The notes under the pieces were generated by a model. The model was not told the origin of the DNA and searched no databases. It was given only the letters and a program-made list of their open reading frames with translations. A DNA stretch of 59,778 bases, taken from Escherichia phage vB_EcoS_SA80RD. The stretch lies in sequence record OL960575.1. One strand, written 5' to 3'. The translations under genes were made by a program, and so were the position numbers. Of this stretch, positions 46,874-52,534 are shown one piece after another (positions within the stretch are counted from its first letter, which is position 1; every line of letters starts with the position of its first letter).

Positions 46874-46900
46874 AAAGGGCCGAAAGGCCCTTTATTTATT
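46874..46900. terminator. bidirectional terminator
   Basis: AAAGGGCC-gaaa-GGCCCTTT followed by TATTTATTTG. Confidence 0.6.
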
Positions 46901-49232
46901 TGCTTAAGTCCTTGAAAACACTCTCAATTGACTCGTCTATATACCAACCCAATCCCCTGAAATTACGCTTCAACGCATCTTCACGCGTGACTGGAACGAG
47001 CGCACCCATGTCTACAAGTTGCTTGATGGTAAGGTCTGTTGCAGTACCTGCTCCCATCCTGTGATTCTTGAATGCTGCTAGACCGTAGGTTCTGCGTGTG
47101 ATAGTTGCCTTTGGAATAATACCGTCAACGCGCAGCTCCTTACGATCACATGCAATCTTACCGCCAAGATAGTCTTTGCAGACCTGACAGATAGCCTTCA
47201 CACGTGTTTCGTCATCACCGCCAATAGTACCTTTTTCCCATGCGTTGATCATGATGTCCTGTCCGTGCGTAACAAAATCTACCGCCCATTGCATGTCATT
47301 AGGTTGCACCACAGGATTGATCCAGTTTTCCCCCACCGCTAACAGTGACGCAAGACGTAGAGCTTTAAGGTGTGCACGGTTCCAAGGCTGACGGATTGCT
47401 TCGTCTTTGGTTGCGTTAATGTGTTCGTCACATAACAGGTTAAACTCCCGTTCAATCCTTTCAGCTTCAGGACTTAACTGGACTGTGACAGTTTGAAACT
47501 TCGCCATTGTTACTAAGGTGTGGTTAACAAGATGGCACACCATGTCCTTTAACTGCTGGGGCATTATAATCTCAGGGTTTTCGTTTGCAGGAACTCGATC
47601 TCCTTCATATTGCACAATGTGGAAACGGGACAAGAAACCGTCTTCCATCATTTCACGGGTTAATGCTTCAAAGAACGTGTCCGGCGTTGTTTCTCCCAGC
47701 ACGCTGAACGCCACCCCTTCCATCGTTTTGGTATTATTAGCCTTATCAGAATATCCGATACCGCCAACAACATCCATCGCACCAGATTTTTGATACACAT
47801 CTGTGATAGTTTGCTTCAGGGTATAGTTTGCAGTGCCAGGTTGAGCCGTTGCCATACCTTTAATGGTTTTGCCAAACTCGCCGTTAATATTCACAAACGA
47901 ACTATGATCCGCAAAACTTTTACGCAACGCAGGACCAGACGCATAGTTAGTCATGTCTACAAATTCATGAACTTGCGGTAATTGCTCCCCTACTTGTTTA
48001 CAAATATAGCTGGGCCCGGCGTGAAGCATCTCTTTACCCACACCAGATCGAGCAATAAGCACAAAATAACCGTTCAATCCTGTGTTGGTGATAGTATTCC
48101 ATACCTTACCGCACACACCAGACAGAAATGCTAACGATGCGGTGATTGCAATTTCTTTAACCGGACGCTGCGATGCTTTGTAGATATACTTTGCAAGCTC
48201 ACCAGCAAGCCCCGGCGGCCACTCAATAGCGGTTGCATCAATGGACGTACTTTCTGCAACTACTATTTCACCGGACGGGCTGACTGTGGTTACAGGCATT
48301 TCCGTTACTTGCTGCATTGTGCTGTGTGCGGCTTGCATACGGGCAGCGTAATCCCGCGCCAGCGCTGCTACGTTTTCCTGAGCAATACGCTCACGCTCCA
48401 TGCGACCGCGACACATACGCAAGCAACGGTCAATATGAACATTGTTCTTATTAGCCTTCTCACGTTTGCCCAGTGCACTATAACGGAACAGACGACGACA
48501 TTGCTCATTACTTTCCGTGTAGAATGCATACATAGAAATAAGGGCAAGGTCTGCTTCAGACTGGGAAGGGAATCCCATTTCAACCCATTCACCGTTAAAT
48601 AACCGTGCATACTTATCGCCGTTATCTGCTTCAAGCGCACGCTGATGAATAGTTGCATCATCTTCTACCGGATCTTTTTCTACCAGTTCAATTTCATATG
48701 TCTTGCGCTGAAGATCAATTTCATTCACAAGCATAGTAAGGTAATGATCACGTTCTGCAACTGGTTTGTTGTACACAGGATTACCAGTGCAGATAATAAA
48801 ACGCTCCTGACTATAAACCTCGACACCATCACGTCGACGGCCTTTACCGATGTTACCTCTTAACCACAGGTGAACACCCAAGCCTGAGCGACTCACTTCG
48901 GTGTAAGTATCGAACGCAGTCATGATCTGTTCGAAGCGGCGCAACTGCTCCGGCGTCGTGTGCTTCTTGGGGTCCGGTTCATTGGTTGCATTCTTCACAT
49001 CCAGATCAATGCAGGTGAACGGGTCTTGTGCAGTAAGCACGAAGCCAATATAAGGTTTATTGAAATGAGCGGCGCAACCTTTGGCAGCTTCAAACGTCAT
49101 AAGCATATCCGGATCGGTAACGTCCGCCGCCATCAAACGTCCGATATCGTTATCCCATATTAATGGGCGTTTATCTTCACCAGCAATAGCCCACTGATTG
49201 TATTGTTTGATTTCATCAGGAAATAATTTCAT
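46896..49232 (-). CDS. primase-polymerase / helicase (AEP-type primase with SF3-like ATPase)
   Basis: N-terminal GVHLWLRG prim-pol-like motif; central ARSGVGKE Walker A; ATG 49232 (track start 49241 is GTG). Confidence 0.65.
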   Translation of the reverse strand: MKLFPDEIKQYNQWAIAGEDKRPLIWDNDIGRLMAADVTDPDMLMTFEAAKGCAAHFNKPYIGFVLTAQDPFTCIDLDVKNATNEPDPKKHTTPEQLRRFEQIMTAFDTYTEVSRSGLGVHLWLRGNIGKGRRRDGVEVYSQERFIICTGNPVYNKPVAERDHYLTMLVNEIDLQRKTYEIELVEKDPVEDDATIHQRALEADNGDKYARLFNGEWVEMGFPSQSEADLALISMYAFYTESNEQCRRLFRYSALGKREKANKNNVHIDRCLRMCRGRMERERIAQENVAALARDYAARMQAAHSTMQQVTEMPVTTVSPSGEIVVAESTSIDATAIEWPPGLAGELAKYIYKASQRPVKEIAITASLAFLSGVCGKVWNTITNTGLNGYFVLIARSGVGKEMLHAGPSYICKQVGEQLPQVHEFVDMTNYASGPALRKSFADHSSFVNINGEFGKTIKGMATAQPGTANYTLKQTITDVYQKSGAMDVVGGIGYSDKANNTKTMEGVAFSVLGETTPDTFFEALTREMMEDGFLSRFHIVQYEGDRVPANENPEIIMPQQLKDMVCHLVNHTLVTMAKFQTVTVQLSPEAERIEREFNLLCDEHINATKDEAIRQPWNRAHLKALRLASLLAVGENWINPVVQPNDMQWAVDFVTHGQDIMINAWEKGTIGGDDETRVKAICQVCKDYLGGKIACDRKELRVDGIIPKATITRRTYGLAAFKNHRMGAGTATDLTIKQLVDMGALVPVTREDALKRNFRGLGWYIDESIESVFKDLSK

Positions 49233-49233
49233 C

Positions 49234-49758
49234 TTATACACCCAATTTGTTACAACCGTGGTTCTTGTGAAAATTGTGATCAGTTAATGCTTTACTTACA
49301 GCCATCTGTGCATCTTCAAAAGTATCATATACTCCAAGATATTTTGAAGTCCCGTCCACGCCTATACGAGCTTGCCATTTATTAGTACCTTTGTGAAATG
49401 TAACTCCATTTACTCCAGAGGTATTATTGCGTTTCTTACTTTGATTTCGACCATTTTCTTTGTGAGTAACTAAACGCAAGTTTTCAATGCGGTCGTCGTA
49501 ACGAACGTGATTAATATGATCAATTTCCATCCCTTCCGGTATAGGACCGTTGAACATTTCCCATACTATTCGTGAACGACGATATAGTTTACCATTAAGG
49601 GTAATACGAACATATCCTTTATCCGTAAGCGTACCTGCAACGCATCCTTCTTTTGCTCTTGCACCCATATCTTTCTTCCAATACAACACTCCTTCATTAT
49701 ATTGGAATACTACCGCCCATTGTGGGAAAGCTTTAATTTCAGCGGGAAACAGTTCCAT
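49234..49758 (-). CDS. HNH-AP2 homing endonuclease
   Basis: EIDHINHVRYDDRIENLRL plus AP2-like C-terminus ending ...HKNHG. Confidence 0.7.
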   Translation of the reverse strand: MELFPAEIKAFPQWAVVFQYNEGVLYWKKDMGARAKEGCVAGTLTDKGYVRITLNGKLYRRSRIVWEMFNGPIPEGMEIDHINHVRYDDRIENLRLVTHKENGRNQSKKRNNTSGVNGVTFHKGTNKWQARIGVDGTSKYLGVYDTFEDAQMAVSKALTDHNFHKNHGCNKLGV

Positions 49759-49764
49759 ATTTAA

Positions 49765-49968
49765 TTAAGACCTCCGACGCTTATCGCCTTGCATCTTTTC
49801 CAGGACGGGTTCTGCTAATGAACGTTTATAGATGTACACGCTACCGATTTTAATAGCGCCGGGAATGCATTCGCGCATTCTGGAGAGCTTAAATTTTGAA
49901 ATACCGAACTGGTTTTCAATTTCGGTAGTTGTTATATAGTTGTCATTAAATTCTTCGACGTGGGTCAT
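49765..49968 (-). CDS. small helix-turn-helix DNA-binding protein (putative transcriptional regulator)
   Basis: 67 aa; ITTTEIENQFGISKFKLSRM resembles an HTH; strong AAGGAGGAG RBS. Confidence 0.45.
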   Translation of the reverse strand: MTHVEEFNDNYITTTEIENQFGISKFKLSRMRECIPGAIKIGSVYIYKRSLAEPVLEKMQGDKRRRS

Positions 49969-50029
49969 AGCTCCTCCTTTGTCCGCACACTATACACAGA
50001 TAAGAGGAGCCATTGCAATGCGTTTTGCG

Positions 50030-50776
50030 TTACAGGATATGGGGGCAATAATATTTATCCATAACAAACTGAAAAACTTCTTCAGGTGTGCGGTCATTAC
50101 GAAGTTCAATCATATGATTGTCCAGCCATGCTAAACTCTCCTCAGCCTTATCTCTATTATTAAAGTGCAATAGCTTTGAAGGTGTATCGCCAGGAAGGGT
50201 AACTTCAATACAAAATGAACCTGTTTCTAAATGCGTTATGTCGCAAGTCGGCCAAACGCCGCGGTTTTCCCATATAGAAGGCGCATCCTCAAATCTGCAT
50301 GAGCTATACCATTTATTGCGAAGAGATGTGATCTCCTTACTTGTTAACGGGGCGCCCTTAACTCTTTCATGTTCCTCCAGCCAAGCTTTAAATTTTGGGT
50401 TAGGTTTGCGCCCCGGCTTCCCACCTTTCGCCTTTGCGCTTTCTTTAAACGCTTGCTCGTATGGGTCTGATCCTTTGCCCATGTGGTAATTGAATTTGCC
50501 CGTATAGCTGCGAAGCTCTTTGGCGTCCAGTTCATGTCCCAGCTTATCGCTCACCCATGCAAGGAAAGCTTCCCGCTCTGCATCCAGCTTTCCCGCTTTC
50601 GGTCTTACAGATTTTTTAACTGGCTGCTCCACATCCTCGTTGAAGTAATCTTCCACCATAGCAAGCGCCTGTGATTTGGTTGGTGCACCACGCAACCGTG
50701 AGCACGCTTGCACAACCCAAGCCGCGAAGCACATATCCTTAACCACAGTCTTTGAGGTAATAATTTCTTCACTCAT
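50030..50776 (-). CDS. hypothetical protein (first gene downstream of the iteron region)
   Basis: About 249 aa from ATG 50776 with GGTGG RBS. Confidence 0.45.
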   Translation of the reverse strand: MSEEIITSKTVVKDMCFAAWVVQACSRLRGAPTKSQALAMVEDYFNEDVEQPVKKSVRPKAGKLDAEREAFLAWVSDKLGHELDAKELRSYTGKFNYHMGKGSDPYEQAFKESAKAKGGKPGRKPNPKFKAWLEEHERVKGAPLTSKEITSLRNKWYSSCRFEDAPSIWENRGVWPTCDITHLETGSFCIEVTLPGDTPSKLLHFNNRDKAEESLAWLDNHMIELRNDRTPEEVFQFVMDKYYCPHIL

Positions 50777-50863
50777 AATCCACCTATACGCGTAGAAAGA
50801 AAGGTAATCATATAACAAAGTTTTTGTAATCGCAAAACCTTCGCAAAACTTTGTCTTTCCTGC

Positions 50864-50892
50864 ATTATATTAAACCATAGTGCTAGTGGCCA
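50864..50892 (-). promoter_or_regulatory. candidate sigma70-type promoter (minus strand), TGGCCA-17-TATAAT
   Basis: On the minus strand: -35 TGGCCA (50887-50892), 17-bp spacer, -10 TATAAT (50864-50869); spacer overlaps an ATAGTG iteron. Confidence 0.35.
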
Positions 50893-51105
50893 GCATAGTG
50901 GCATCACCGCTTATAGTGCGCCGTTACTGGCTTCGCTATAGTGTGCCACTATACGTGCACTATACACTAATAGCTAATTTTATTTTTGTTAGCGGTAATA
51001 AAGTTTTGGGTTTTTGGGGGGACCCCCTAATATACCCCGGAAAAAACAAAGAAATAGTAGTAGTAGTGAAAACATAGTGAAATGCCACTATCTCACTATC
51101 ACTAC
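50877..51105. repeat. iteron cluster: ATAGTG / GCCACTAT hexamer-octamer repeats in both orientations
   Basis: ATAGTG at 50877, 50895, 50913, 50938, 51074; CACTAT at 50947, 50958, 51086, 51094; lies in a 660-bp ORF-free region with an AT-rich stretch (51180-51270) and a G6-A-C5 tract (51015-51027). Confidence 0.6.
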
Positions 51106-51372
51106 TAATTTAATGTAATTTATGGGGGTGTCTATGTACCAAAAACCTAAAACTTTCAGTCAACAGACTAAAAACGGATAGAAACTAAAAGTTAATAAGT
51201 AATACCATAAATATATATAAAATAAGGATTTATTAATAATGTATATAGTACCTATTGGTATTATTTGAATGTTTTTGGGTCTGCAACAAAAAGTCGCAAA
51301 ACTCACAAAACCTGAACGGATGCAGATCAAAAACGAGAAGTCAAGTGCTTTTGAGGGAAATTTATTGAACTA

Positions 51373-51402
51373 TTGTGATCGGAAGGTATATCAAGCTATA
51401 AT
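51373..51402 (+). promoter_or_regulatory. candidate sigma70-type promoter (plus strand), TTGTGA-18-TATAAT
   Basis: -35 TTGTGA 51373-51378, -10 TATAAT 51397-51402; would read antisense to the minus-strand early genes. Confidence 0.3.
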
Positions 51403-51486
51403 GCGCTTAATCGCGGGATATTGGAGGAGGACTTTATTGCGCGGTTAACCGGACCAGTAGGAGGGCTGGCCCGGAGTAGTTAGAAT

Positions 51487-51663
51487 TTATTTGCGGACGA
51501 ATACAGATCCGACAAATAATGTTGATTGGGTAGCAGCTTGCTCGATTAATTCGCCAACAAGCTGTGATTGAGTAAGAGGTCGTAAACCTTCTTTGGCGCG
51601 TGCTTCATTTACACGACGTTGAAGGTCTTTTAAGTATTGAGTTGCGAAACTATCTAATTGCAT
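51487..51663 (-). CDS. small hypothetical protein (58 aa)
   Basis: ATG with AAGGATAAGAA upstream; translates to MQLDSFATQYLKDLQRRVNEARAKEGLRPL...; below the ORF-track cutoff. Confidence 0.3.
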   Translation of the reverse strand: MQLDSFATQYLKDLQRRVNEARAKEGLRPLTQSQLVGELIEQAATQSTLFVGSVFVRK

Positions 51664-51835
51664 TTCTTATCCTTAGGGCTCCCGCAGAAGCCCGTCAGTG
51701 AACAGTGTGGTTATAGATTATGCCAGTGAGTACCTTGCTTTTAATTTTTGGTTTGCTGCGATAATTTTACATACAGGTATAACAACCAGAAGATCATTAT
51801 ACTCCAGCCAGAATTGAATGAGCGCCTGCATTTAA

Positions 51836-52450
51836 TTAACCCTCCAAGCCGTTATATTTGCGCCAGGCGTAGAACTGAATGGCTACCGTCGTCCCGTTGT
51901 AAGAAGGCATTGCAGCTTTCATTTCTTTCAGCTCCGGCGTGCGGCCCAGTTCCTTCAGAAGCTTGTCGCCCATTGCCCACACTTCGGCAGTTTTTCCTTT
52001 CAGGGGCTTGCGAGCGCCATTTTTGAAATCACAGCGAGCAGCTTTTGCATCCTGTTTTGGCGCGGCAGCTTTTGGCTCTTCAATTTTGATTTCAGAAACC
52101 TGCGTGGCAGCTTTTGCGTGTTTCATATCTTTCTCTTCCTCCTGCTCCAGAGCTTCGAGGCAGCTTTTGACGATTTCCGGATTTACCATCGGGCGCAGTA
52201 CCGAGACGCTGGCAGCTGGCGCGGCGGTCGGTGCTGGGACTTTTTGCTCCGGCTGTTGCGCTTTTTTATGGTCGTGCAGTACCTGAAGCACTTCCTTCTC
52301 GACGATGTAAAAACCGATCTCGTCCTGATGGATTAGCTGTTCGTGCGCATCGCGTGCAACCTGGCCCCAGCGGGTCTTAAGAGCGCGGCGTGCATTCGTT
52401 TTCATGGTGTAGCGCATTTTATCCTGTTCGCGGTGAGTTACTTTAGACAT
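51836..52450 (-). CDS. hypothetical early protein
   Basis: 204 aa with GAGGAA RBS. Confidence 0.45.
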   Translation of the reverse strand: MSKVTHREQDKMRYTMKTNARRALKTRWGQVARDAHEQLIHQDEIGFYIVEKEVLQVLHDHKKAQQPEQKVPAPTAAPAASVSVLRPMVNPEIVKSCLEALEQEEEKDMKHAKAATQVSEIKIEEPKAAAPKQDAKAARCDFKNGARKPLKGKTAEVWAMGDKLLKELGRTPELKEMKAAMPSYNGTTVAIQFYAWRKYNGLEG

Positions 52451-52534
52451 GGTATATTCCTCTGTTAGATTGTTTAGTTGTCTTGCTAAGTTGACTTATT
52501 ATTGCCCAGTCAGATTAACTAGGCAAGATATAAA

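What the first reader, a model, noticed from the sequence alone, without database searches (positions are those of the whole stretch)
50820..51480. 660-bp ORF-free hub with ATAGTG/GCCACTAT iterons, an AT-rich stretch and overlapping promoter-like sequences
Between the minus-strand genes ending at 50776 and 51487 there is no convincing ORF. The region contains at least five direct ATAGTG hexamers and four inverted CACTAT copies (often as the octamer GCCACTAT), a G6-A-C5 tract at 51015-51027, and a strongly AT-rich segment at 51180-51270. A candidate minus-strand promoter (TGGCCA-17-TATAAT, 50864-50892) overlaps one iteron, and a plus-strand TTGTGA-18-TATAAT match sits at 51373-51402. Iterons beside an AT-rich unwinding element are the classic arrangement of a replication origin, but the same repeats could be operators for the adjacent HTH protein (49765-49968).
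Basis: seen in the sequence. Interest (0 to 1): 0.55.

Follow-up and report, generated by a model that had tools for sequence, protein, structure and literature searches.

The report
Likely replication origin of a Seuratvirus
The gene-free 700 bases at the head of this E. coli phage's replication genes are most likely its replication origin plus control region, holding two separate sets of short repeats that each change in step with a different phage protein across related phages.

Summary
Nine exact ATAGTG/CACTAT hexamers lie in 223 bp (0.12 expected). The genome's most AT-rich, least stable 100 bp is here, no ORF is conserved, and both promoter-like sites are present.

The window is a Seuratvirus (Queuovirinae), about 97% identical to phage Greed. 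Comparison with 31 GenBank relatives and about 12 metagenome contigs splits the region into two systems.

1. A near-invariant AT-rich core (51160-51272) is flanked by inconspicuous A-run repeats, CAAAAC/GTTTTG in this window. These become ATAAAC or ATAAAAT exactly where the C-terminal ~140 residues of the primase-helicase change allele (three alleles; 21 genomes read directly, none discordant). That C-terminus is predicted to be a winged helix. This is the layout known from SaPI Rep and P4 alpha origins.

2. The ATAGTG arrays do not follow the primase. Their variants (ATAGGG, or absent) follow the adjacent orphan 248-aa protein. One contig argues against the HTH protein as their binder.

A rightward promoter conserved in all relatives drives a short structured RNA.

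Best reading: an origin served by a self-loading primase-helicase, plus a p248-bound control array over the replication-operon promoter. The evidence is comparative only; no binding or replication was tested. It is a new member of a known kind.

The parts
51160..51272 (.). AT-rich core, the candidate DNA unwinding element. It is near-invariant across relatives (blocks ATAAATATATATAAAATAAGG at 51207-51227 and CTATTGGTATTA at 51252-51263).
   Evidence: It is the least stable and most AT-rich 100 bp of the genome. Its columns are invariant in the 12-genome alignment A1. The cumulative GC-skew minimum lies nearby at 50967.
51139..51164 (+). Left core-flank repeats of primase type I: CAAAAAC (51140-51146) and TAAAAC (51148-51153). 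They are followed by the invariant CTTTCAGTCAAC (51153-51164).
   Evidence: The sequence reads TATAAACTTATAAAC in every type II primase phage and has TAAAA-type repeats in type III.
51271..51311 (.). Right core-flank repeats of primase type I: GTTTTTG (51271-51277, inverted), CAAAAAG (51287-51293), GCAAAAC (51296-51302) and ACAAAAC (51305-51311).
   Evidence: All copies change together with the allele of the primase C-terminal domain. There are three alleles among 21 genomes read directly. The pattern is enriched in the gap (13 against 3.1 expected, P = 2e-5), and the gap holds the genome maximum per 500 bp.
51000..51017 (-). Inverted copy of the left flank repeats (AAAGTTTTGGGTTTTTGG). It forms an 18-nt inverted repeat, 94% complementary, with 51139-51156. 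The two arms bracket ATAGTG array 2.
   Evidence: Inverted repeat I5. Type II phages carry AAAGTTTATAAGTTTA at the same place.
51016..51027 (.). G6-A-C5 palindrome. Relatives have only a loosely similar G/C-rich patch here, and no function can be assigned.
50877..50970 (.). ATAGTG array 1. Direct copies lie at 50877, 50883 (degenerate), 50895, 50913 and 50938. Inverted copies lie at 50947, 50958 and 50965 (degenerate). The array overlaps the -35 and spacer of the leftward promoter.
   Evidence: The array reads ATAGGG/CCCTAT at the same positions in the Seurat, CAjan, slur01 and SLUR76 class, and is absent from phages that lack p248.
51054..51105 (.). ATAGTG array 2. It has ATAGTAGTAGTAGTG (51054-51068) and ATAGTG (51074), then inverted CACTAT (51086, 51094) and CACTAC (51100). 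Like array 1, it is a set of convergent copies.
   Evidence: inverted repeat I1. Its class changes together with array 1.
50864..50892 (-). Candidate leftward sigma-70 promoter (TGGCCA-17-TATAAT) for the operon of p248, HTH, HNH and primase.
   Evidence: It is annotated as a promoter (TTGCCA-17-TATAAT) in SA126VB. Class B phages have TTGCAC-16-TACAAT at the equivalent place, read from the sequence.
50815..50854 (.). 5' leader of the p248 gene. It holds a perfect 10-nt inverted repeat (ACAAAGTTTT...AAAACTTTGT) and three more type I repeats: GTTTTTG at 50820, and GCAAAAC at 50832 and 50843.
   Evidence: (I14, D1, D3).
51373..51402 (+). Rightward sigma-70 promoter (TTGTGA-18-TATAAT), conserved in all relatives. 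In five relatives it drives an inserted HNH gene.
   Evidence: The -10 is invariant and the -35 is kept in 10 of 12 aligned genomes, with one substitution each in Skure and VogelGryff. It is kept in yong3 and, with one substitution in each hexamer, in the more distant L047 and L048. Homology ends exactly after the -10 where an HNH gene is inserted.
51403..51480 (+). Structured leader or short RNA with a 5' hairpin and a second hairpin (CCGGACCAG-N8-CTGGCCCGG, 51449-51474). The loop of the second hairpin carries GGAGG. The same hairpin lies just downstream of the convergent 58-aa gene and is annotated elsewhere as its terminator.
   Evidence: The fold has z = -2.8. Six of the 7 pairs of the second hairpin show two-sided changes in relatives. 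SA126VB annotates it as a terminator. No U-tract follows on either strand.
50030..50776 (-). p248, an orphan protein (phrog_27223). It is the candidate binder of the ATAGTG arrays.
   Evidence: Its presence and subtype follow the array class. Only 11 clusters were found among 5.8 billion proteins. It has no Pfam, PDB or fold match.
49765..49968 (-). 67-aa HTH protein of the excisionase/MerR-like HTH_17 type. Its gene sits immediately upstream of the primase gene, or of an HNH insert before it, in all relatives examined, including other genera.
   Evidence: Synteny was seen in yong3, Vid5, JG054 and PSTCR4.
46896..49241 (-). Primase-helicase. It has an NrS-1-like prim-pol and helix-bundle domain, then a DUF3987 helicase, then a C-terminal winged helix (residues about 700-781). 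It is the candidate initiator that reads the core-flank repeats.

Best explanation
The gap is the phage's origin of replication fused to the control region of its replication operon.

**Origin proper (about 51139-51311).** This is the genome's easiest-to-melt AT-rich block. It is bordered on both sides, in both orientations, by 6-7 bp A-run repeats (CAAAAC/GTTTTG). I infer the following steps:
1. Hexamers of the 781-aa primase-helicase recognise these repeats through their C-terminal winged helix.
2. They open the AT-rich core and load themselves. No DnaA or IHF sites are present.
3. They prime synthesis with their own prim-pol domain.

The near-invariance of the core parallels the near-invariance of the prim-pol and helix-bundle domains. 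This suggests the core also carries the priming site.

**ATAGTG arrays.** The two convergent arrays (50877-50970 and 51054-51105) are binding sites of a second, swappable specificity module, most likely the adjacent orphan protein p248. Array 1 lies over the -35 and spacer of the leftward promoter that expresses p248, the HTH protein and the primase. p248 would therefore set expression of the replication genes. It may also act as an accessory factor at the origin.

**Rightward promoter.** The conserved promoter (51373-51402) fires away from the core and makes a short structured RNA that is antisense to the end of the early operon. Its role is open. It could activate the origin through transcription or act as an antisense regulator.

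**Shown here:** the repeats, their clustering, the stability minimum, the predicted winged-helix fold, and the allele-by-allele covariation.
**Inferred:** all binding, melting, loading and regulation.
For: 1. **AT-rich core.** It is the least stable and AT-richest 100 bp in 59.8 kb and is near-invariant in 12 aligned genomes.
2. **Core-flank repeats.** They are enriched (13 against 3.1 expected, P = 2e-5) and occur in both orientations on both sides.
3. **Three-allele covariation.** The primase C-terminal domain comes in type I, II and III, with 43-51% identity between types over the last 140 aa. Each type pairs with its own repeat: CAAAAC, ATAAAC or TAAAA(T/C). This holds in 21 genomes read directly. 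All 31 GenBank records agree when judged by identity band. Flanks are 85% identical within a type and 61% between types.
4. **Mapping to the C-terminus.** Type III is 80-89% identical to type I in residues 280-640 but only 43% in the last 140 aa. Its repeats still differ from type I.
5. **Independent assortment.** The DNA between primase and origin (HTH, p248 and the ATAGTG arrays) assorts freely: (I,A), (I,C), (II,A), (II,B), (III,A), (III,B-like) and (III,C) all exist. Outside the primase gene, 51100-51300 is the only segment closer to the window in type I than in type II genomes.
7. **Known parallel.** SaPI Rep/PriRep5 proteins use a C-terminal winged helix to read penta- or hexanucleotide iterons placed on both sides of an AT-rich region, and they self-load (PMC9371898). 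PriRep5 (7OLA) is the best solved-structure match to the primase N-terminus (E = 1e-10).
8. **Position.** The gap heads the leftward replication and recombination module: primase, ligase, Sak4, SSB and exonuclease. The cumulative GC-skew minimum is at 50967.
9. **ATAGTG arrays.** There are 9 copies in 223 bp (P about 2e-14). Every copy switches to ATAGGG in another class. The arrays occur only where p248 is encoded, and the p248 mid-region follows A against B, including in L047 and L048.
Against: - No experiment exists. Everything rests on covariation in recombining, closely related genomes. Only three primase alleles exist, so there are few independent events, and shared ancestry of two backbone segments could mimic co-evolution.
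- The three repeat types differ by only one or two bases in A-rich words. They could partly reflect phased A-tract bending rather than base-specific reading.
- The winged-helix call rests on a predicted structure. Foldseek E-values were not significant, and neither the SaPI Rep nor the P4 alpha C-terminal domain came out as a specific match.
- The GC-skew curve is nearly flat from 51 to 53 kb, so its minimum is weak evidence.
- More distant relatives (Vid5, PSTCR4, L051) have no comparable gap next to the HTH-primase pair. The arrangement is not general to the primase family.
- For p248, linkage is maximal because its gene abuts the arrays. Its fold is unknown. yong3 has a few ATAGGGG copies without any p248 gene.
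Confidence: 0.6

Rival explanations
1. The gap is only a transcriptional control hub. The ATAGTG arrays are operators for p248 and/or the HTH protein at the replication-operon promoter. The A-run repeats and the AT-rich block are UP-element-like or bent DNA and a terminator region between the early and middle operons. Replication starts elsewhere, or by recombination.
For: Array 1 overlaps the -35 and spacer of a good leftward promoter. The gap lies between an early operon that ends in a hairpin and the replication operon. A strongly conserved rightward promoter is present. The phage encodes Sak4, SSB and an exonuclease, so recombination-dependent replication is possible. Small DNA-binding genes in front of replication genes are often repressors, for example orf56/orf904 of pRN1 (PMC4234260 abstract).
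Against: It does not explain why the A-run repeats on both sides of the AT-rich core switch with the primase-helicase C-terminal winged helix, and with nothing else. It does not explain why the core is the genome's stability minimum and near-invariant. A regulatory role for the ATAGTG arrays is already part of the best explanation, so this rival differs only by denying origin function.
Confidence: 0.22
2. The ATAGTG hexamers are themselves the origin iterons, bound by an initiator (p248 acting like lambda O or a plasmid Rep) that recruits the primase-helicase. The CAAAAC repeats are incidental.
For: The ATAGTG arrays are by far the strongest repeat signal. All copies change specificity together between phage classes. 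They lie within 60-300 bp of the AT-rich core. Their convergent arrangement recalls iteron sets pointing in opposite directions (PMC9371898).
Against: The arrays and p248 are missing entirely from class C phages (Skure, VogelGryff, STP-SP5, L022, L046), which keep the same core, the same flank repeats and the same primase. They therefore cannot be essential to a shared origin mechanism. p248 has no similarity to any initiator family. The repeats are 6-8 bp at irregular spacing, unlike 17-22 bp phased iterons. This rival also leaves the primase-linked covariation unexplained.
Confidence: 0.1
3. The region is a non-coding RNA locus, a packaging or partition site, or a homing and recombination hotspot, and the repeats serve that function.
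For: A structured short transcript is likely at 51403-51480, with compensatory changes in its second hairpin. HNH homing endonuclease genes insert at both edges of the module. Tubulin-type partition proteins (TubR) are among the fold matches of the primase C-terminal domain.
Against: No Rfam family or tRNA is present. The repeats lie upstream of the conserved rightward promoter, not in its transcript. The terminase small-subunit gene, where pac or cos sites normally sit, starts at window position 12, about 8.3 kb from the gap if window position 1 follows 59778 on the packaged DNA. The phages are virulent siphoviruses with no partition genes seen. The HNH insertions are sporadic, whereas the repeats are universal.
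Confidence: 0.05

Closest known systems
SaPI replication origins with Rep / PriRep5 self-loading initiator-helicases (Staphylococcus aureus pathogenicity islands)
   Same: Both have short penta- to heptanucleotide iterons on both sides of a central AT-rich region, with copies in opposite orientation. Both initiators are helicases, fused to a primase in PriRep5, whose C-terminal winged helix gives origin specificity. Neither uses a host initiator site. Specificity differs between alleles. (PMC9371898; here.) The N-terminal primase region matches 7OLA at E = 1e-10.
   Different: The SaPI ori lies immediately downstream of rep. Here it lies about 1.9 kb upstream of the primase gene, with two or three genes between. 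This element is a virulent coliphage, not a satellite. The helicase core is DUF3987 and the C-terminal domain shows no specific match to the SaPI domain. A second repeat system (ATAGTG with p248) and a conserved outward promoter are interleaved with the origin. Nothing has been shown biochemically.
Satellite phage P4 ori/crr and the alpha primase-helicase (from my own knowledge: Ziegelin et al. 1993; Yeo et al. 2002)
   Same: A single polypeptide of about 780 aa carries a primase, an SF3-type helicase and a C-terminal winged-helix origin-binding domain. The octamer iterons occur in both orientations. A small regulator gene (cnr) lies just upstream of alpha, as the HTH gene lies upstream of the primase here.
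   Different: P4 alpha has a different primase type. P4 needs a second distant cis site (crr). No second cluster of the repeats was found in this genome. The HTH here is HTH_17-like and is not shown to interact with the primase.
Archaeal plasmid pRN1 replication operon orf56/orf904
   Same: A small DNA-binding protein gene lies directly upstream of a replication protein built from prim-pol, helix-bundle and SF3-helicase parts. The promoter region upstream of the operon is essential in cis (PMC4234260 abstract).
   Different: The pRN1 origin lies downstream of orf904 and has a different structure. The domain of life and the sequences differ.
Papillomavirus E1/E2 and lambda O-type origins (analogy only)
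   Same: An initiator-helicase binding site next to an AT-rich element is combined with arrays for a second sequence-specific protein that also regulates the adjacent promoter.
   Different: There is no homology. p248 matches no known fold. The accessory role is inferred only.

Membership tests
Iteron-flanked AT-rich origin served by a self-loading initiator-helicase with a C-terminal winged helix (SaPI Rep / P4 alpha kind) | Short repeats on both sides of a central AT-rich region, with copies in opposite orientations | tested here: met
   On the left are CAAAAAC and TAAAAC (51140-51153, + strand). On the right are GTTTTTG (51271, inverted), then CAAAAAG, GCAAAAC and ACAAAAC (51287-51311). A further inverted set lies at 51000-51017.
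Iteron-flanked AT-rich origin served by a self-loading initiator-helicase with a C-terminal winged helix (SaPI Rep / P4 alpha kind) | An easily melted AT-rich element at the centre | tested here: met
   51177-51276 is the least stable 100 bp of the genome, about 4 sd above the mean.
Iteron-flanked AT-rich origin served by a self-loading initiator-helicase with a C-terminal winged helix (SaPI Rep / P4 alpha kind) | The initiator is a helicase (with or without a primase) carrying a C-terminal winged-helix domain | tested here: met
Iteron-flanked AT-rich origin served by a self-loading initiator-helicase with a C-terminal winged helix (SaPI Rep / P4 alpha kind) | Winged-helix allele and iteron sequence are cognate (specificity pairs) | tested here: met
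   Three C-terminal domain alleles pair with three repeat types in 21 genomes, with none discordant. The genes in between assort independently. This is a correlation only.
Iteron-flanked AT-rich origin served by a self-loading initiator-helicase with a C-terminal winged helix (SaPI Rep / P4 alpha kind) | The origin lies immediately downstream of the initiator gene (SaPI arrangement) | tested here: not met
   The origin candidate lies about 1.9 kb upstream of the primase start, beyond the HNH, HTH and p248 genes.
Iteron-flanked AT-rich origin served by a self-loading initiator-helicase with a C-terminal winged helix (SaPI Rep / P4 alpha kind) | The protein binds and melts the origin, and the origin supports replication with the protein supplied in trans | not testable with these tools
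   This needs EMSA or footprinting, KMnO4 probing and plasmid replication assays.
Iteron-flanked AT-rich origin served by a self-loading initiator-helicase with a C-terminal winged helix (SaPI Rep / P4 alpha kind) | Sequence or structural homology of the initiator to SaPI Rep or P4 alpha | tested here: inconclusive
   The N-terminal primase region matches PriRep5 (7OLA) at E = 1e-10. The C-terminal domain matches generic winged helices only.
Classical iteron origin with a dedicated initiator (plasmid Rep / lambda O kind), applied to the ATAGTG arrays | Iterons of 17-22 bp in phased direct repeats, an initiator of a known Rep or O family, and often DnaA boxes | tested here: not met
   The core repeat is 6-8 bp at spacings of 6-25 bp and in mixed orientation. 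p248 has no Pfam, PDB or fold match. No DnaA box or IHF site is present. The arrays and p248 are absent from class C relatives that keep the core.
Autoregulated operator array of a small HTH repressor (hth67 as binder of ATAGTG) | Operator sequence and the regulator's recognition helix change together | tested here: not met
   L047 has a class-A type helix (SKFKMSRLRD) with ATAGGG arrays. L046 and Skure share GGAATAAT arrays but have different helices.
Operator or binding array of the adjacent protein p248 | The sites overlap the promoter of the binder's own gene and change with the binder | tested here: met
   Array 1 covers the -35 and spacer of the 50892..50864 promoter. Arrays are present only where p248 is encoded, and the p248 mid-region follows ATAGTG against ATAGGG. 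Gene and sites are adjacent, so linkage confounds this.
Described RNA families (Rfam 15) and tRNA | A match to a covariance model | tested here: not met
   No match up to E = 1 in 49500-52500. No tRNA or tmRNA in the window.
Packaging site (pac/cos) | Location in or next to the small-terminase gene, or at the genome ends | tested here: not met
   terS is at 12-569 and terL at 547-2106. The gap is about 8.3 kb from terS if window position 1 follows 59778 on the packaged DNA.

The most novel reading that the evidence does not exclude
The origin may need two independent, separately swappable specificity keys. The first is the winged helix of the primase-helicase reading the A-run repeats at the AT-rich core. 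The second is an orphan, genus-restricted protein (p248) reading convergent ATAGTG arrays, which both gates the replication-operon promoter and licenses or enhances origin firing. That would resemble the papillomavirus E1/E2 pair. Class C phages would use a still unidentified reader of GGAATAAT arrays in its place. This would make the locus a natural modular incompatibility system between co-infecting Seuratviruses.
Probability: 0.2. Interest if true: 0.65.

Novelty: new member of a known kind. Interest (0 to 1): 0.5.

Why it matters
No origin of replication has been described for Seuratvirus or the Queuovirinae in the searched literature. These phages are widely used in the BASEL collection, in defence-system screens and in work on 7-deazaguanine DNA.

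The comparative data give base-level predictions of which protein domain reads which repeat, and nature has already made the swaps (three primase alleles, three or more array classes). Binding and origin-swap experiments can therefore be designed directly.

If confirmed, this extends the SaPI/P4 style of self-loading primase-helicase origin to virulent coliphages. It also assigns a first function to an orphan protein family, and it provides orthogonal origin and initiator pairs for phage engineering.

Tried and rejected
- **RNA genes.** An Rfam scan at E up to 1 and a tRNA scan found nothing.
- **Primase as reader of ATAGTG.** Rejected. phiG7 (ATAGTG) and slur01 (ATAGGG) have 99% identical primases.
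- **HTH as reader of ATAGTG.** I favoured this after because its recognition helix differs by class. I dropped it after L047 and L046.
- **The ATAGTG at 49988 as a tenth iteron.** Rejected. It is a promoter -10 that is conserved in ATAGGG phages.
- **Homology search with the primase C-terminal 202 aa alone.** It returned nothing. The full-length query worked.
- **Foldseek of the primase C-terminal domain against PDB.** It returned the same winged-helix families, but with non-significant E-values.
- **Host-factor sites.** No DnaA box or IHF consensus lies in the gap.
- **IMG/VR scan with the primase.** It gave only four loci, two of them known phages.
- **Metagenome pattern scan.** About half of the 20 hits were chance AT-rich matches. 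L044 is an inverted assembly chimera and was set aside.
- **More distant relatives.** Vid5, PSTCR4 and L051 have no comparable gap beside the HTH-primase pair. JG054 has a different, short AT-rich patch. They could not extend the test.
- **Coding potential of the gap.** Rejected, because the ORFs are not conserved.
Full report
**What the window is.** The 710 bases between the genes ending at 50776 and 51487 are 97% identical to Escherichia phage Greed. They match 33 phage records, all Seuratvirus (Queuovirinae). The small-terminase gene starts at position 12, so the window is a whole genome written from the packaging genes. The gap heads a leftward block of replication and recombination genes:
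- an orphan 248-aa protein (p248, 50030-50776)
- a 67-aa HTH protein (49765-49968)
- an inserted HNH/AP2 homing endonuclease
- a 781-aa primase-helicase (46896-49241), made of an NrS-1-like prim-pol and helix-bundle domain plus DUF3987
- further on, ligase, a Sak4-like annealing protein, SSB and an exonuclease

**Checking the observation.** All stated features are present.
- Five ATAGTG and four CACTAT copies lie between 50877 and 51099. That is 9 of the genome's 33 copies in 223 bp, against 0.12 expected (P about 2e-14).
- Degenerate copies extend them into two arrays, 50877-50970 and 51054-51105. Each has direct copies followed by inverted copies.
- The G6AC5 tract is at 51016-51027.
- The AT-rich stretch is the most AT-rich and least stable 100 bp of the whole genome.
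- Both promoter-like sites score 10 of 12.
- ORFs in the gap are short and not conserved. Every relative keeps a gap of 600-830 bp with no conserved ORF, and up to 1.3 kb without a called gene in L046.
- Rfam and tRNA scans are empty.

**The key comparative result.** Aligning relatives shows that the gap is a mosaic of invariant and class-specific pieces.

*Invariant pieces:*
- the AT-rich core (for example ATAAATATATATAAAATAAGG and CTATTGGTATTA)
- the block CTTTCAGTCAAC
- the rightward promoter TTGTGA-18-TATAAT
- the leader that follows the promoter, which is near-identical in 9 of the 12 aligned genomes (single base changes in Greed and SeppeHuegi)

*Class-specific pieces.* There are two repeat systems, and they vary independently of each other.

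**System 1: repeats beside the core.** Directly left of the core (51140-51153) and right of it (51271-51311), the window has CAAAAAC, TAAAAC, GTTTTTG, CAAAAAG, GCAAAAC and ACAAAAC. Further copies lie at 51000-51017 (inverted) and 50820-50849. The pattern is enriched (13 against 3.1 expected, P = 2e-5), and the gap holds the genome-wide maximum.

In half of the relatives, every one of these copies reads (T)ATAAAC/GTTTAT instead. The split coincides exactly with two alleles of the primase-helicase. The alleles are 96-100% identical over residues 1-270, 65% beyond that, and about 45-50% over the last 140-160 residues.
- Twelve GenBank genomes were read directly, with none discordant.
- All 31 distinct GenBank records agree when judged by identity bands.
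- Seven metagenome contigs also agree.

A third allele turned up among database homologues. L046, L047 and L048 share a C-terminal 140 aa that is 94-100% identical among them and 43-51% identical to types I and II. Their helicase region stays 80-89% identical to type I. All three carry a third repeat, TAAAA(T/C), at the same places. L050 (type II) again has ATAAAC.

The genes between primase and origin assort freely with these alleles. Combinations (I,A), (I,C), (II,A), (II,B), (III,A), (III,B-like) and (III,C) are all seen. In a 100-bp association profile, 51100-51300 is the only segment outside the primase gene where type I genomes are closer to the window than type II genomes. Flank identity is 85% within a type and 61% between types.

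The best solved-structure match of the N-terminal region is PriRep5 of SaPI5 (7OLA, E = 1e-10). The paper on that protein describes the same logic I infer here. SaPI Rep proteins recognise penta- or hexanucleotide iterons through a C-terminal winged helix. The iterons lie on both sides of a central AT-rich region, with copies pointing in opposite directions, and the helicases load themselves without a host initiator (PMC9371898). Phage P4 alpha is a second known example (my own knowledge). The gap has no DnaA box or IHF consensus. The cumulative GC-skew minimum falls at 50967, but the curve is flat up to 53 kb, so this is weak support.

**System 2: the ATAGTG arrays.** These arrays read ATAGGG/CCCTAT at the same positions in Seurat, CAjan, slur01 and SLUR76 (class B). 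In Skure, VogelGryff and STP-SP5 (class C) they are replaced by unrelated GGAATAAT/ATTATTCC repeats.

*HTH protein.* Its recognition helix at first appeared to follow the classes. Contig L047 then combined a class-A type HTH (70-73% identity to class A, helix SKFKMSRLRD) with nine ATAGGG copies. L046 and Skure share GGAATAAT arrays but have different helices.

*p248.* It does follow the arrays.
- It is encoded in every phage that has ATAG(T/G)G arrays, and in none of the class C phages.
- Its middle region (about residues 65-105) has class-specific signatures that hold in L047, L048 and L050.
- Its C-terminal domain does not follow the classes.

p248 is an orphan. Only 11 clusters were found among 5.8 billion proteins, all of those traced lying in Seuratvirus-like contigs. 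It has no Pfam, PDB or fold match. Because its gene abuts the arrays, linkage is a serious caveat.

Array 1 covers the -35 and spacer of the leftward promoter TGGCCA-17-TATAAT (50892..50864). SA126VB annotates the same site as TTGCCA-17-TATAAT. ATAGTG clusters nowhere else in the genome.

**The HTH protein.** Homologues sit immediately upstream of the primase gene, or of an HNH insert before it, even in other genera: yong3, Vid5, JG054 and PSTCR4. Some of them hit HTH_17 just below threshold (best E = 3.5e-5). The gene has its own promoter-like site (TTGCAA-18-TATAGT, 50018..49989), which is conserved across classes. Its role is open. The pairing recalls orf56/orf904 of pRN1 and cnr/alpha of P4 (my own knowledge).

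**The rightward promoter and RNA.** The -10 of TTGTGA-18-TATAAT is invariant in the 12 aligned genomes and the -35 is kept in 10 of them (Skure TTGTGG, VogelGryff TTGTAA). The promoter is also kept in yong3 and, with one substitution in each hexamer, in L047 and L048. In Dru_SM1, SLUR76, STP-SP5, L030 and L050, homology stops exactly after the -10. A different leader plus an HNH endonuclease gene on the + strand follows. This argues that the promoter is active.

In the window the transcript would begin near 51409. It folds into two hairpins (z = -2.8). The second hairpin (51449-51474) keeps pairing through two-sided changes in 6 of 7 pairs among relatives, and its loop carries GGAGG. It lies just past the stop codon of the convergent 58-aa gene. 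SA126VB annotates it as that operon's terminator, although no U-tract follows on either strand. Whether this RNA activates the origin by transcription, acts as an antisense regulator, or is only a terminator read from both sides cannot be decided here.

**Conclusion.** The best reading (confidence about 0.6) has two parts:
1. 51139-51311 is the origin proper: a near-invariant unwinding element bordered by primase-specific repeats that the winged helix of a self-loading primase-helicase reads.
2. The ATAGTG arrays are a second, swappable module read most likely by p248. It controls the replication-operon promoter and possibly assists the origin.

The main rival (about 0.2) keeps the regulatory part and denies origin function. 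It cannot explain the primase-linked covariation or the position and invariance of the stability minimum.

All mechanistic steps (binding, melting, loading, regulation) are inferred. The independent evolutionary events are few: three primase alleles and three to four array classes. The searched literature holds no description of a Queuovirinae origin. I class the finding as a new member of a known kind of origin.

Noticed in passing
window 49234-49758 (-): An HNH_3 + AP2 homing endonuclease gene is inserted between the HTH gene and the primase gene. It is present in the window and Dru_SM1 and absent from Greed, Seurat, CAjan and SA126VB. yong3 and L050 have HNH genes at the same junction.
   Followed up: partly
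L010:5386-5715, L009:5440-5769, L011:5373-5849, L030, L050 (equivalent to window 51403 onward): In five relatives an HNH endonuclease gene on the + strand, with its own leader, replaces the sequence immediately after the -10 of the conserved rightward promoter. The two leader types both begin with a small hairpin whose stem differs on both sides (GCG..CGC, CTGC..GCAG, GTGC..GCAC).
   Followed up: partly
window 49969-50029 (-): Between p248 and the HTH gene lies a TTGCAA-18-TATAGT promoter-like site. There is also an inverted repeat (GGCTCCTC...GAGGAGC[T]) that would pair the HTH Shine-Dalgarno sequence with upstream RNA, but only in read-through transcripts from the upstream promoter. The segment is identical in class A1 and class B phages although their HTH proteins are only 57% identical.
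   Followed up: no
L005/L013 (Skure), L011 (STP-SP5), L017, L022, L046; right-hand copy also in L009 (Dru_SM1): Class C phages replace the ATAGTG arrays with GGAATAAT/ATTATTCC arrays on both sides of the core, and they have many more AAGTTTTG copies. No reader protein could be identified: p248 is absent and the HTH helix is not conserved. Skure and STP-SP5 also carry a lac-operator-like TGTGAGCGGATTGTTAAC. Dru_SM1 is a mosaic with class A arrays on the left and the class C array on the right.
   Followed up: partly
window 46896-48250 versus 50777-51486: This is local mosaicism. The gap is closest to Greed (97%). The 3' two-thirds of the window's primase gene is closer to ECP2304, Skure and Dru_SM1 (96-97%) than to Greed (91.7%). 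Recombination inside the module is therefore frequent, yet the allele of the primase C-terminal domain and the flank repeats stay matched.
   Followed up: partly
window 50877-51105 and 51139-51311: In CAjan, dPreQ0 replaces G in GA and GGC contexts (PMC7544227). The preferred octamer ATAGTGGC contains GGC. The primase-linked A-run repeats contain almost no modifiable G. Whether the modification affects protein binding at the origin is unknown.
   Followed up: no
L044 (MAVE01000110.1): In this metagenome contig the right half of the gap (hairpin, promoter and GGAATAAT array) is joined in inverted orientation to the left core flank. It looks like an assembly chimera at a contig end and was excluded.
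   Followed up: no
window 51480-51530 versus L003:2340-2666: The window, SA126VB, phiG7 and VogelGryff lack the 108-aa gene (Seurat gp63) that follows the hairpin in Seurat, CAjan, Skure and SeppeHuegi. Sequence diverges 5-8 bases after the hairpin, which marks another recombination junction at the edge of the gap.
   Followed up: no
L018:8852-9900 (Hafnia phage yong3): This more distant relative has a fourth allele of the primase C-terminal domain (42-50% identity to the others), no p248 gene and a different AT-rich core. Its core is flanked by GTTTATAG/CTATAAAC repeats. An extra 74-aa + strand ORF lies upstream of the conserved promoter. Its HTH is annotated 'regulatory protein cox'.
   Followed up: partly
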